Virus record (IMG/VR): IMGVR_UViG_3300025834_000005
Source: a virus
Strand: one strand, 5' to 3'
DNA: 64,000 nt
Shown: one piece after another, positions 12,876-43,780 of the stretch
Layout of the letters: each line of letters starts with the position of its first letter
How positions within the stretch are numbered: the first letter of the stretch is position 1
Program-made: the position numbers and the translations under genes
Notes under the pieces: model-generated
Database searches by the model: none
What the model saw: only the letters and a program-made list of their open reading frames with translations
Told to the model about the DNA's origin: nothing

Positions 12876-12905
12876 TGTAACCTTTATTTTCCATTTACGT
12901 ATAAC
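12876..12905 (+). promoter_or_regulatory. ECF-sigma-type promoter (TGTAAC-N16-CGTATAAC repeat)
   Basis: Exact N16; next ATG 12921. Confidence 0.7.
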
Positions 12906-12920
12906 ATAGAAACAAACACT

Positions 12921-13235
12921 ATGAAAGTAACAGGATTTATTCACACGGAAACAAAACTTGATCTTCAACCTTTCGGAAATTTTAAATTTTCATGGGCAAA
13001 GAAAAAAGCAGTTTCGCCTAATGTTATTATGATAAGGGAGCTTGTTATGGGTGATCGTTGGAACGTGGGCGACGAAAGTTACAATGCTTTAATAAAGGAA
13101 ATGAAGAAAACAAAAACCGATGTATTTGTTAATGTTGTGCACTCAAAAAATTATTATTACACAACAGTCGGGAAACCTTACATCATTTCAATTGATCATA
13201 TAAATCTTCGAAACCATGAATCAACCATACGTTAG
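12921..13235 (+). CDS. hypothetical protein (104 aa)
   Basis: ORF track trimmed to MKVTGFIH after promoter 12876. Confidence 0.7.
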   Translation: MKVTGFIHTETKLDLQPFGNFKFSWAKKKAVSPNVIMIRELVMGDRWNVGDESYNALIKEMKKTKTDVFVNVVHSKNYYYTTVGKPYIISIDHINLRNHESTIR

Positions 13236-13443
13236 TTATAATACCCATCAATTTAAAAGCGATGGAAAATGTATTCAGACCTATAAAAAGGTTGTAAAGG
13301 AAATGGCGGTTTTAATTAAAAAGAGTTGGGACAATGAGGTTCATGTATTTCGCCAAAGACGTGGATGTTGGGGGGAATGGTTTGAGATATGGGGATTAGA
13401 CGCAAACGGCAAACCTAAAATAAATAAACAGGGTTGGCAATGA
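13216..13443 (+). CDS. hypothetical protein (75 aa)
   Basis: ORF track; 20-nt overlap with upstream gene. Confidence 0.6.
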   Translation: MNQPYVSYNTHQFKSDGKCIQTYKKVVKEMAVLIKKSWDNEVHVFRQRRGCWGEWFEIWGLDANGKPKINKQGWQ

Positions 13444-13446
13444 TCT

Positions 13447-13476
13447 TGTAACCTTTTGGATTCATTTACGTATAAC
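13447..13476 (+). promoter_or_regulatory. ECF-sigma-type promoter (TGTAAC-N16-CGTATAAC repeat)
   Basis: Exact N16; next ATG 13498. Confidence 0.7.
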
Positions 13477-13497
13477 TTAGAAACAAATACTTATCCA

Positions 13498-13734
13498 ATG
13501 TTCTACGAAATCAACGTTGCCAAAGACACAAAAAGCAATTACAGAAATGAGGTTAATTACAGGCATTTCTTCGCTACAGCACCCAGAAGCATCACAACTG
13601 ATGATGAATTAAAAACAGCACTCGAAATCTTTATGGTTGCATTTCCTGAACCAATGTATAACATAACGGTTACAAGAGACGACCAAAGGAGTGAGGGTGT
13701 TAACATTGAGGACTTTTTAAATAAGAAGCGATGA
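13498..13734 (+). CDS. hypothetical protein (78 aa)
   Basis: ORF track trimmed to MFYEINVA after promoter 13447. Confidence 0.65.
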   Translation: MFYEINVAKDTKSNYRNEVNYRHFFATAPRSITTDDELKTALEIFMVAFPEPMYNITVTRDDQRSEGVNIEDFLNKKR

Positions 13735-13892
13735 AAAAGGAAAAGAAACATAGGTATTATGATATGAAGTATTGGGTTGGCTTCAATCTTATCGAAACAG
13801 AAAATTGGTATAAGAGTCTGAATGATGCACATAAGTACTGCAACCGACTTGATTATAAAATTTTAAGCATAAAATATATCGGTTGGAAATAA
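13731..13892 (+). CDS. small protein (53 aa)
   Basis: Own translation MKKEKKHRYYDMKYWVGFNLIETENWYKSL...; ATGA overlap with upstream stop. Confidence 0.45.
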   Translation: MKKEKKHRYYDMKYWVGFNLIETENWYKSLNDAHKYCNRLDYKILSIKYIGWK

Positions 13893-13905
13893 AAATAACA
13901 ATCTT

Positions 13906-13935
13906 TGTAACCTTTTTAAAGTATTTACGTATAAC
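13906..13935 (+). promoter_or_regulatory. ECF-sigma-type promoter (TGTAAC-N16-CGTATAAC repeat)
   Basis: Exact N16; no credible ORF for about 500 nt downstream. Confidence 0.7.
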
Positions 13936-13939
13936 ATAG

Positions 13940-14455
13940 AAACAAAGCATAAACAATTAAAACTTTCATCATGAAAAAGAATTAATAAAAATATTCAGAT
14001 AGGGCTTATCAATCTCAGGTAGGTAAAGCGGAATAAGGCTGAACATCTATATAAGAAAAGCGAAAGCAAACATCCGCACAGGTTTGCAATTAGCAGTGGA
14101 CGCATTAAAAGGAAGCGTACATGAAAAACATTGGAGGAAATATATAACAAGTACTTCAAATTCCTTTTCTTTAATCGTGACGTTTTTGAAAAGAGTGAGT
14201 AGTTTCGGATGCGGTTAGAGTAATAAGTTAAACGAAAGCGATGATCTTGAGGGAGCAAATAAAAAACTCCAAGTGATTAGTTCATAGCATGTTAACGTAA
14301 TTTGTTTTGGGTTTATTCAGGTACGTTGACGCTCACTTAAGATCATTTACAATATTATATTACCTGTATGGGTAATAAACCCGATAAATAACCTGTATGG
14401 GTTTATTTACCGATTAAAAATAAATCATTTGAATTTCAAGTTTGTTTGTTTGTTT
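13940..14455 (+). ncRNA. promoter-driven non-coding transcript of about 0.5 kb, class unknown
   Basis: Canonical promoter 13906 followed only by a 4-codon ORF; terminator at 14456; internal 9-bp hairpin 14374-14407 and direct repeat ACCTGTATGGGT x2. Confidence 0.4.
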
Positions 14456-14487
14456 AAAAGGTTACATTAATTTGTAACCTTTTTTTT
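14456..14487 (+). terminator. terminator whose 3' arm is the -35 element
   Basis: AAAAGGTTACA / TGTAACCTTTT plus T8. Confidence 0.7.
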
Positions 14488-14502
14488 GTGTTTACGTATA
14501 AC
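14473..14502 (+). promoter_or_regulatory. ECF-sigma-type promoter (TGTAAC-N16-CGTATAAC repeat)
   Basis: Exact N16; next ATG 14518. Confidence 0.7.
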
Positions 14503-14517
14503 AAAGAAACAAACGAT

Positions 14518-14937
14518 ATGAATACTAAACAGTGTTTAAATTGCGGTCACAACAATATCAATGGCGTTGTTAAAATTGATGACTTAGGTTCGCATATGAT
14601 CTGCAAGAAATGTTGTTCATCCTTTGATACGATTGTTGAGGCGAATGACTCTTATACAATAGGTTATTCTTATTTAAAAAACAAATACGGCTACAAAGGT
14701 ATTGTCTATACATCGGCATTCAGAGAGAAACTTCATAAGACTTATTCAGTTAAAGCTCGTAGGGAATTGGAAGCAAATGCAACCGAAAAGGATTATCACA
14801 CTTTTTTAAAACCCATTGACAAAGATAACTTTGATGACAGATGCATCGAATTATTATTAGGTCAGTATTATTATGGCTATACGATTAGATTCGAATTGTT
14901 TGATAAGCTATGCAGTATGGGTATCATTAGTTTGTAA
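14518..14937 (+). CDS. zinc-ribbon-like protein (139 aa)
   Basis: ORF track trimmed to MNTKQCLNCGH...CKKCC after promoter 14473. Confidence 0.65.
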   Translation: MNTKQCLNCGHNNINGVVKIDDLGSHMICKKCCSSFDTIVEANDSYTIGYSYLKNKYGYKGIVYTSAFREKLHKTYSVKARRELEANATEKDYHTFLKPIDKDNFDDRCIELLLGQYYYGYTIRFELFDKLCSMGIISL

Positions 14938-14962
14938 CCTTTTCAATTCATTTACGTATAAC
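14933..14962 (+). promoter_or_regulatory. ECF-sigma-type promoter (TGTAAC-N16-CGTATAAC repeat)
   Basis: Exact N16; next ATG 14977. Confidence 0.7.
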
Positions 14963-25425: not shown

Positions 25426-25433
25426 TATGCAAA

Positions 25434-25470
25434 AATAATCATAGGGGTCAAACAGATCACTATGATTATT
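25434..25470 (+). terminator. hairpin after CDS 24484..25425
   Basis: AATAATCATAG / CTATGATTATT perfect 11 bp, 15-nt loop, no clear T-run. Confidence 0.45.
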
Positions 25471-25780
25471 ATGTTATTCTTATACAGCGTTTTACCTAAA
25501 ACAGCCGTTAGCCAAACAGGTCATTAGTAGCCCAAATATCTTCTCCGTTCTGGTTGCAAAATCATAGATATTCATTAATGACCTGTTATTTAAGTTCTTA
25601 ACATATTGAAAAACTATGATAATCGAATTCTCTATAGGGGTCTGAGAGGCTATTTATCATATTACAATGTCCATAATTATAATTATTTATAAAAATGGTT
25701 TCTGAAAAAAAGCACATGGGTCGTCGCTCTTCGTGTCGGTACACAAAATGCTTAGTTTTTAATCAAAAACCCTACCCAAT

Positions 25781-25829
25781 TAGACATTTAGACAAGCGTC
25801 TAATTAAAACCCCTATTATTCAGCGTCTA
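25781..25829. repeat. TAGAC / GTCTA iteron-like cluster
   Basis: TAGAC at 25781 and 25789; GTCTA at 25798 and 25825 (GCGTCTAA x2). Confidence 0.5.
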
Positions 25830-25862
25830 ACTCCTTGATACTCAGCAAAACCTTTTTCAAAT

Positions 25863-25990
25863 AAAAATGATCAGATTCTAACCATTTTAATTAAAATAGG
25901 GTAGTTATGGTACAAATAAAATAGCTTTTTTTATTTGATCATTTTCTGATCAAAATTACCCATATAAATGACGTAAAAATGATCAAAAAT
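25863..25990. repeat. GATC cluster (AAAATGATCA repeats and TTTGATCA / TGATCAAA palindrome)
   Basis: Four GATC sites in about 125 bp of AT-rich spacer: 25870, 25938, 25949, 25981. Confidence 0.5.
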
Positions 25991-26003
25991 AGGTTATGTT
26001 TTT

Positions 26004-43602: not shown

Positions 43603-43768
43603 ATGAGTAAACGATGCTGTAAACGATGCTGTAAATGAGGCTGTAAAGACTGATATATTCGATAGAAAATGGATTGCTGAAATGCTCGAATCATATGCAT
43701 ATTACTGCACGACTATAGAAAATATACCAGCACGTGAATGGCTTGACATAACATATCCAAAACAATAA
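43603..43768 (+). pseudogene. small gene with NDAV repeats and unresolved start / frame change
   Basis: ATG 43603 frame stops after MSKRCCKRCCK; +1 frame DAVNDAVNEAVKTDIFDRKWIAEMLESYAYYCTTIENIPAREWLDITYPKQ is open to 43768 but has no ATG; 12-nt tandem AAACGATGCTGT x2. Confidence 0.3.
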
Positions 43769-43780
43769 AAATACAATTAT

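What the first reader, a model, noticed from the sequence alone, without database searches (positions are those of the whole stretch)
13906..14487. A consensus promoter drives about 0.5 kb with no ORF, bounded by a terminator
Promoter 13906 has a perfect consensus including the ATAGAAACAAA leader. It is followed only by a 4-codon ORF (MKKN). About 480 nt with no plausible coding frame follow. The 87-aa minus-strand ORF in the track is low-complexity and antisense.

The segment ends at terminator 14456. It contains:
- a perfect 9-bp hairpin, AATAAACCC / GGGTTTATT (14374-14407)
- a direct repeat ACCTGTATGGGT (14362 and 14391)
- possible long-range pairings such as CATCCG / CGGATG
- an AAGTTTGTTTGTTTGTTT tail

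In a genome where nearly every promoter is 45-55 nt from an ATG, this is a deliberate non-coding transcription unit. I could not assign it to a known RNA class.
Basis: partly seen in the sequence, partly recalled or inferred. Interest (0 to 1): 0.6.

Follow-up and report, generated by a model that had tools for sequence, protein, structure and literature searches.

The report
Gene-less early cassette in jumbo phage
One of about 60 near-identical promoter cassettes in an uncultured 328-kb glacier phage holds no gene, only about 0.55 kb of non-coding sequence with a folded 3' third; it is probably a phage non-coding RNA, but nothing related exists in public data to test that.

Summary
A perfect copy of the phage's repeated promoter (TGTAAC 13906-13911, 16-nt spacer, CGTATAA 13928-13934) is followed by an ATG at 13971 that opens only four codons and two stops. 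About 470 nt with no coding signal follow, then a (GTTT)4 tract and a terminator hairpin (14456-14483) whose second arm is the -35 box of the next promoter. This is the longest stretch in the window with no plus-strand ORF.

Among 61 hits to the -10 core, only this promoter has no ORF of 30 aa or more within 190 nt. No Rfam family matches. The longest frames have no protein homologue. There is no residual codon bias, no decayed promoter copy inside, and no DNA or structural relative in any collection searched.

Folding beyond chance is confined to the 3' third. There is a 115-nt branched domain (z -4.2). Next to it, one 9-nt arm has two identical 10-nt partners (0.1% of shuffles).

Best reading: an early, roughly 545-nt non-coding RNA whose 3' third is the working part (confidence 0.45). 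Main rival: an empty or relic cassette of a PeSL-like shuffling system (0.3). Expression and conservation are untested.

The scan noted this same stretch in an overlapping window. It had already described the ECF-type promoter class on other phage genomes.

The parts
13906..13946 (+). ECF-type early promoter: -35 TGTAAC at 13906-13911, 16-nt spacer, -10 CGTATAA at 13928-13934, then the conserved leader start. The transcription start is inferred near 13940.
   Evidence: The same two boxes at the same spacing lie upstream of host sigma-70 genes. The start site is inferred from ECF promoter geometry (my knowledge).
13940..13970 (+). A-rich, unstructured 5' leader of the usual kind, slightly longer than in the other cassettes
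   Evidence: z -0.7. It resembles the leaders of relatives.
13971..13988 (+). Mini-ORF of four codons (MKKN) in a normal start context, closed by two TAA codons
13989..14235 (+). A/G-rich central stretch with no coding signal and no folding beyond chance
14240..14347 (+). Branched (Y-shaped) predicted RNA domain. A 12-pair stem (14240-14251 with 14336-14347) closes it. One apical loop displays the 10-mer at 14308-14317.
   Evidence: -32.8 kcal/mol, z -4.2, 0 of 200 shuffles as stable; I2
14356..14415 (+). Repeat and hairpin module. It holds the 12-nt direct repeat (14362, 14391). The arm at 14374-14382 pairs with 14399-14407. An identical 10-mer partner lies upstream at 14308-14317.
   Evidence: a two-sided 9-mer occurs in 0.1% of shuffles; 3 of the 4 window copies of the 9-mer lie here; pair probability 0.84 for the downstream partner
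14438..14455 (+). (GTTT)4 tract, a recurrent pre-terminator element. It is complementary to the conserved early leader, including that of the next gene (14500-14514).
Evidence: (I3, I5).
14456..14487 (+). Intrinsic terminator: an 11-pair hairpin plus a T run. Its descending arm (14473-14483) is the -35 box of the next promoter.
   Evidence: I7; z -4.6
14473..14520 (+). Next cassette: promoter and start codon (14518) of a 139-aa orphan gene

Best explanation
The stretch is one complete early cassette of a roughly 328-kb uncultured jumbo phage of Bacteroidota. It holds a non-coding RNA gene where the other cassettes hold a protein gene.

How I think it works:
- RNA polymerase carrying an ECF-type sigma factor (host or phage) starts near 13940 and stops at the hairpin at 14456-14487. 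This gives an RNA of about 545 nt.
- Its 5' end looks like any early mRNA, so ribosomes probably load at 13971. They are released after four codons by a double stop.
- The next 250 nt are loose and A-rich.
- The 3' third folds into a 108-nt branched domain (14240-14347) and an adjacent hairpin (14370-14411). It ends in the standard G/U tract and terminator, which should protect the 3' end.
- The same 10-mer appears twice. One copy is displayed in an apical loop of the branched domain. The other is masked in the hairpin by the single complementary arm.
- I take this 3' third to be the working part. It most likely acts as a binding or decoy RNA for a protein or RNA partner early in infection.

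Shown: the anatomy, the lack of coding capacity, and the non-random repeats and local fold.
Inferred: transcription, the RNA ends, stability, and any function.
For: - Promoter: perfect consensus, 1 of 44 copies of the 23-mer. The same boxes and spacing sit 28-50 nt upstream of the 287-aa sigma-70 gene in about 19 Flavobacteriia genomes, so the motif is a real promoter type. The class was described as SM6 in Flavobacterium psychrophilum, where one SM6 promoter drives a putative regulatory RNA (PMC9723704).
- Terminator: canonical.
- Uniqueness: the only promoter with more than 190 nt to an ORF, and the longest ORF-free gap.
- No coding signal: below shuffles, no homologues, no recoding.
- No decayed promoter copy inside, so it is a single unit.
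- 3' domain: z -4.2.
- Repeat cluster: one arm with two identical partners occurs in 0.1% of shuffles and at only three loci of the window. Three of the four window copies of the 9-mer lie within 100 nt.
- Precedent in relatives: orphan promoters of this type drive tRNAs and small RNAs. Another orphan promoter in the window precedes a GC-rich stretch of about 85 nt.
- Precedent in other jumbo phages: transcription units without a CDS are known in 201phi2-1 (PMC11512511).
Against: - No homologue of any kind, so there is no conservation or covariation evidence.
- No RNA data.
- The 5' two-thirds are no more structured than shuffles.
- The whole-unit z of -2.4 is matched by one of seven mRNA controls.
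- The flanking genes are fast-evolving orphans in a region built for cassette turnover, so a functionless insert could persist.
- As a nested fold, the alternative pairing with the upstream 10-mer costs 17 kcal/mol. A simple two-state switch is therefore not supported.
Confidence: 0.45

Rival explanations
1. Empty or relic cassette. The promoter-terminator units behave like the PeSL cassettes of T4-type phages, which recombine and shuffle their contents. On this reading the cassette captured or retained sequence with no function. It is still transcribed, but the RNA does nothing. Its promoter and terminator stay perfect through recombination with the other roughly 60 copies.
For: - The composite terminator/promoter architecture is repeated about 60 times. 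It matches the published PeSL description (PMC2839356 and PMC4122927).
- An ATG in normal context followed by an immediate double stop looks like the stump of a gene start.
- The 5' 300 nt are structureless.
- No relatives exist anywhere, and the neighbouring 139-aa gene is itself an orphan.
Against: - There is no residual codon bias at all; it is lower than in shuffles. A decayed gene would therefore have to be very old, yet the stretch was not deleted from an otherwise tightly packed region.
- The repeat and complement cluster and the 3' domain are non-random.
- There is no decayed promoter copy inside that would mark fused cassettes.
Confidence: 0.3
2. A DNA-level site cluster. Three copies of one 9-mer (forward, reverse, forward at 14309, 14374, 14399) and two 12-nt direct repeats 29 nt apart are binding sites for a phage DNA-binding protein, such as a regulator or an origin or recombination protein. 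Transcription through them is incidental or auxiliary.
For: - The motif copies cluster.
- The direct-repeat word occurs as iterons inside a putative replication-initiator-like gene in an unrelated viral contig. I assigned that gene by eye from its N-terminus and did not test it.
- The other loci with the same two-sided repeat statistic include the ORF-free hub at 25.5-26 kb, a candidate origin.
Against: - The unrelated contig shares no gene with the window, and three matches to such a pattern are about what chance gives.
- GC skew shows no turn at 14 kb.
- The sites lie inside a unit bounded by a canonical promoter and terminator, and their forward-reverse-forward order suits RNA pairing.
Confidence: 0.1
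3. The product is the mini-ORF. A strongly expressed four-codon minigene (13971-13988) acts through translation, for example by peptidyl-tRNA drop-off as with the lambda bar minigenes (from my knowledge), or as a leader peptide. The rest of the unit is spacer.
For: - Normal leader and start context, and a tandem stop.
I did not check that note.
Against: - No terminator or competing helix lies within 450 nt of the mini-ORF.
- Nothing regulated follows, since the next gene has its own promoter.
- This reading leaves 470 nt and its non-random 3' third unexplained.
Confidence: 0.07
4. A long cis-acting leader for the downstream gene. Read-through transcripts carry the G/T tract (14440-14454), which pairs with the next gene's leader (14500-14514). 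The unit would then tune translation or termination for the gene at 14518.
For: 15-nt, 93% complementarity across the terminator (I3).
Against: - The same tract recurs before other terminators, so it is a generic cassette feature.
- The downstream gene has its own promoter 10 nt upstream of its ATG region.
- It does not explain the 470-nt body.
Confidence: 0.05

Closest known systems
PeSL (promoter-early stem-loop) cassettes of T4-type phages (Arbiol et al. 2010, PMC2839356; Comeau et al. 2014, PMC4122927)
   Same: Short composite terminator-plus-early-promoter motifs are repeated many times. They flank small, variable, mostly orphan genes in plastic early regions. Here the hairpin arm and the -35 box are the same bases.
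   Different: - The promoter is an ECF-type one of Bacteroidota, not a sigma-70 early promoter.
- This cassette holds no ORF.
- A word search of the 2010 paper found no mention of non-coding or ORF-less cassettes.
- Recombination at these motifs was not tested here.
SM6 / ECF-type promoter class of Flavobacterium psychrophilum (Guerin et al. 2021, PMC9723704)
   Same: - A conserved CGT box at -10 and an AAC-type -35 box.
- I found the same two boxes at the same spacing upstream of sigma-70 and queA genes in 30 Bacteroidota genomes.
- One SM6 promoter drives a putative regulatory RNA.
   Different: - The phage adds a fixed 11-nt leader after the -10 box.
- The phage uses the motif about 60 times in 64 kb.
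- Which sigma factor reads it is unknown.
CDS-less transcription units and small RNAs of jumbo phages (201phi2-1, phiKZ; PMC11512511)
   Same: Promoter-to-terminator units with no coding sequence in a giant phage, of unknown function.
   Different: - Those were found by transcript mapping and are mostly under 250 nt, and one is conserved across genera.
- This one is about 545 nt, is predicted only from sequence, and has no relatives.
Large structured RNAs often found in phages (GOLLD, ROOL, HEARO, group I introns; Rfam)
   Same: Size class (about 0.5 kb) and phage setting.
   Different: - No match even at E up to 10.
- Two-thirds of this RNA is predicted to be unstructured, unlike those densely folded RNAs.

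Membership tests
Any Rfam 15 family (including GOLLD, ROOL, HEARO, group I/II introns, ribozymes, riboswitches, Y RNA) | Covariance-model score at or above the family's gathering threshold | tested here: not met
   no match in the whole window; over 13700-14700 at E up to 10 there is only noise; the best match has E 0.1 and hits the terminator on the wrong strand.
Protein-coding gene or recent pseudogene | An open frame or residual codon bias, or homology of a translated frame | tested here: not met
   - stops in all frames.
- codon score is below shuffles.
- no homologue or paralogue.
Stop-codon-recoded gene | A frame that opens when one stop is reassigned, with that stop unused as a terminator elsewhere | tested here: not met
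   - with TAG=Q the best frame is 100 codons and has no ATG.
- TAG ends 4 of 50 genes.
- no suppressor tRNA in the window.
ECF-type (SM6-like) promoter | A -35 box with AAC, a spacer of about 16 nt, and a -10 box with CGT | tested here: met
   The same motif precedes host sigma-70 genes.
ECF-type (SM6-like) promoter | Transcription start mapped downstream, dependent on an ECF sigma factor | not testable with these tools
   No RNA run holds the stretch.
Intrinsic terminator | A stable hairpin followed by a U run | tested here: met
   11 pairs, then 8 T; z -4.6.
PeSL-type mobile regulatory cassette | A composite terminator hairpin plus early promoter, repeated and flanking variable ORFs | tested here: met
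.
PeSL-type mobile regulatory cassette | Indels or replacements between close relatives whose ends lie in the motifs | not testable with these tools
   No close relative was found. The four runs are identical.
Leader-peptide transcription attenuator | A mini-ORF overlapping mutually exclusive terminator and antiterminator helices, upstream of a regulated gene | tested here: not met
   - No terminator-like hairpin lies within 450 nt of the mini-ORF.
- The hairpin at 14370-14411 is not followed by a U run.
- The alternative pairing costs 17 kcal/mol.
Type III antitoxin RNA (ToxI-like) | Tandem near-identical repeats of about 34-45 nt followed by an endoribonuclease toxin gene | tested here: not met
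   - There are only two 29-nt units, alike in 12+5 positions.
- The downstream 139-aa gene matches no Pfam family.
T4-type R-loop replication origin | A promoter plus a downstream unwinding element, at a switch in strand bias | tested here: inconclusive
   The stretch downstream of the promoter is AT-rich, but cumulative GC skew shows no turn near 14 kb.

The most novel reading that the evidence does not exclude
The unit is the founding member of an undescribed class of roughly 0.5-kb early phage RNAs. Its 3' domain displays one copy of a 10-mer in a loop and keeps an identical copy masked by the only complementary arm. That layout would let a partner RNA or protein, or co-transcriptional strand exchange, set its state. 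The RNA would act in trans on the host or on phage early messages.
Probability: 0.15. Interest if true: 0.6.

Novelty: new member of a known kind. Interest (0 to 1): 0.35.

Why it matters
If the RNA is real and functional, it would be one of the few long non-coding RNAs assigned to a phage of Bacteroidota, made in the first minutes of infection from a promoter copied from the host's stress regulon. It would add to the tRNA-like and Y-RNA-like genes that earlier notes of this scan report in the same genome, and would point to an RNA-heavy infection strategy. If it is an empty cassette, it shows that cassette shuffling leaves transcribed junk in giant phage genomes. That is a useful caution for anyone calling ncRNAs from promoter-terminator pairs alone.

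Tried and rejected
- **Rfam:** gathering and permissive scans found nothing. ARAGORN found no tRNA or tmRNA.
- **DNA similarity:** no match in the phage collection, in 15 IMG/VR contigs that share the promoter, in about 0.94 Mb of fetched loci by blastn or nhmmer, or elsewhere in the window. Exact-motif scans of IMG/VR for the promoter 23-mer and the triple 9-mer layout gave 0. The direct-repeat pattern gave three unrelated contigs, judged chance.
- **Single-sequence covariance model of 14236-14350:** no hit beyond itself in 100 sources.
- **Synteny route:**
  - The downstream 139-aa protein has no relative among 5.8 billion proteins or in IMG/VR.
  - The upstream 78-aa protein has 125 representative relatives and 103 loci.
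  - None of those loci carries a look-alike of the stretch.
- **Amber-recoding idea:** dropped.
- **Decayed internal promoter/terminator copy at 14291-14330:** I suspected this by eye, but the profile of 59 promoters does not detect it.
- **Complementarity to five Flavobacteriia genomes:** only AT-rich noise.
- **Sequencing runs:** no RNA holder is listed. Four DNA runs of glacier metagenomes are identical over the stretch, so they give no microdiversity.
- **Whole genome:** not held, so the other 264 kb of the phage could not be searched.
- **First z-score script:** timed out and was rerun smaller.
- **Paper searches:** two broad searches gave nothing on Cellulophaga-type phages.

Full report
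**What the window is.** The window is AT-rich (about 33% G+C) and nearly all its genes lie on the plus strand. Its DNA ligase is 46% identical to that of Cellulophaga phages phi17:2 and phi4:1. The downstream neighbour of the finding lies on a contig of 328,501 bases. Four glacier-metagenome DNA runs hold the stretch. It is therefore the early region of an uncultured jumbo phage, most likely of a Flavobacteriia-type host.

**The promoter.**
- A 23-nt word recurs 44 times on the plus strand, against 0.03 expected.
- With its upstream box it reads TGTAAC, 16 nt, CGTATAA, and about 60 copies exist.
- This is the geometry of ECF-sigma promoters (my knowledge of Bacillus SigW/SigX).
- I scanned one genome per prokaryote species for the same two boxes at the same spacing. 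There were 31 hits, 30 of them in Bacteroidota.
- About 19 hits lie 28-50 nt upstream of a 287-aa gene with sigma-70 regions 1.2, 2, 3 and 4. Nine lie upstream of queA.
- The class was described as motif SM6 in Flavobacterium psychrophilum, where it is induced at low nutrients and in one case drives a putative regulatory RNA (PMC9723704).
- Earlier notes of this scan reached the same view on other parts of this genome and on other phages. My test is independent of them.

The promoter is therefore real, and it copies a host type.

**The observation.**
- The copy at 13906-13946 is a perfect match.
- The ATG at 13971 sits 30 nt after the leader start, just beyond the 8-29 nt seen elsewhere, in the usual context.
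- It opens four codons and two TAA stops.
- All three frames are then full of stops.
- 13893-14517 is the longest plus-strand ORF-free gap inside the window, at 625 nt against 342 nt or less for the others.
- The (GTTT)4 tract and the 11-pair terminator follow. The terminator's descending arm is the -35 box of the next promoter.
- One unitig spans 12889-14962 with no difference in four runs.

**Is it a gene in disguise?** No.
- A leave-one-out codon model separates true frames (mean 0.32) from wrong frames (mean -0.84). Here no frame passes.
- With stops ignored, the best 150-nt window scores 0.16. That is below the mean of shuffles (0.26; 97% of shuffles reach the observed value) and near the 5th percentile (0.145) of real genes.
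- TAG ends 4 of 50 genes, and TAG=Q opens only 100 codons without an ATG.
- The 63-codon plus frame and the 93-codon minus frame have no homologue in PHROGs, in the phage collection or among 5.8 billion proteins.
- Six-frame tblastn finds no paralogue.
- A profile of 59 promoter copies finds no decayed copy inside, so this is not two fused dead cassettes.

**Is it a structured RNA?** Only in part.
- The whole unit has z -3.1. Without the terminator it has z -2.4, while seven 509-nt mRNA starts give +0.5 to -3.4.
- By parts, the 5' 300 nt are at chance (z -0.7, -1.9, -1.1, 0.04).
- 14236-14350 folds into a branched domain of -32.8 kcal/mol with z -4.2.
- The hairpin at 14370-14411 has z -1.7. 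The tail with the terminator has z -4.6.
- The arm at 14374-14382 has two perfect partners, identical 10-mers at 14308 and 14398. Such a two-sided 9-mer appears in 0.1% of dinucleotide shuffles and at only three loci of the window.
- Three of the four window copies of the 9-mer lie here.
- In nested folds the downstream partner wins (pair probability 0.84), and forcing the upstream one costs 17 kcal/mol. The upstream copy is therefore better seen as displayed in a loop than as one state of a simple switch.

**Relatives.** There are none.
- Related IMG/VR contigs share the promoter type, and their orphan promoters drive tRNAs and small RNAs. This shows that promoters of this class do head RNA genes.
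- None of those contigs holds a look-alike of this stretch. Nor do 103 loci around relatives of the upstream 78-aa protein.
- A single-sequence covariance model found nothing, and motif scans found nothing related.
- Covariation cannot be tested with the data at hand.

**Reading.**
- The cassette architecture matches the PeSL system of T4-type phages, in which composite terminator/promoter motifs flank and shuffle small early genes (PMC2839356, PMC4122927). That gives a ready route to an empty cassette.
- Against pure junk stand three points: the total lack of codon bias in a tightly packed region, the non-random 3' third, and the precedent for RNA genes behind this promoter.
- I put a functional non-coding RNA at 0.45, an empty or relic cassette at 0.30, a DNA site cluster at 0.10, a minigene at 0.07 and a cis leader at 0.05.
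- It is a new, so far unique, member of a known kind: CDS-less transcription units in giant phages (PMC11512511).

Noticed in passing
window 1800-62000 (about 60 sites); L145-L175: The phage's repeated promoter has the same boxes and spacing as a host promoter. That host promoter lies upstream of the primary sigma-70 gene in about 19 Flavobacteriia and upstream of queA in about 9 Bacteroidales. 30 of the 31 hits across all prokaryote species are in Bacteroidota. Other reports of this scan already noted this on other DNA.
   Followed up: yes
window 18627-18747: An orphan promoter copy is followed at once by a relatively GC-rich stretch of about 85 nt, closed by a 7-bp stem. It has no ATG, and the next promoter starts a few bases later. 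It is likely a small RNA gene.
   Followed up: partly
window 43604-43780: After promoter 43577 the in-context ATG opens an 11-codon Cys-rich mini-ORF built on a 12-nt tandem duplication. A protein-like frame of about 50 codons without an ATG runs in the +1 frame up to 43768. This could be a frameshift, an unusual start or a leader peptide.
   Followed up: no
window 13498-13734: The 78-aa gene just upstream belongs to a widespread small phage protein family with an invariant N-terminal M-Y-E-I-V pattern and an H-F-A-T...R-S core. It has 125 representative clusters, matches PHROG 18878, and has no known function.
   Followed up: partly
window 808, 4121, 9773, 18142-18175, 14438-14455: G/T tracts of the (GTTT)n kind recur just before terminator hairpins. 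They are complementary to the conserved early leader. At 14440-14454 the tract can pair across the terminator with the next gene's leader (15 nt, 93%), which would mask that leader on read-through transcripts.
   Followed up: partly
G001 30222 and 33529; G003 28231 and 31647; G005 27228 and 29329 (loci L028-L041): In related IMG/VR jumbo-phage fragments, promoters of the same type with no nearby ORF sit in front of tRNA-like sequences (read by eye, not run through ARAGORN) and short GC-rich units.
   Followed up: partly
window 25426-26003: The other ORF-free stretch of the window also carries 9-mers with complementary partners on both sides, with many inverted pairs (11-15 per 509-nt tile). 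This is consistent with the origin or hub reading of another first-stage note.
   Followed up: no
window 9810, 26580, 31308, 45251, 49480, 54904, 57781, 63948: A profile of the 59 strict promoter copies finds eight more diverged copies (E from 2.5e-11 to 2.8e-4) that the strict pattern missed.
   Followed up: no
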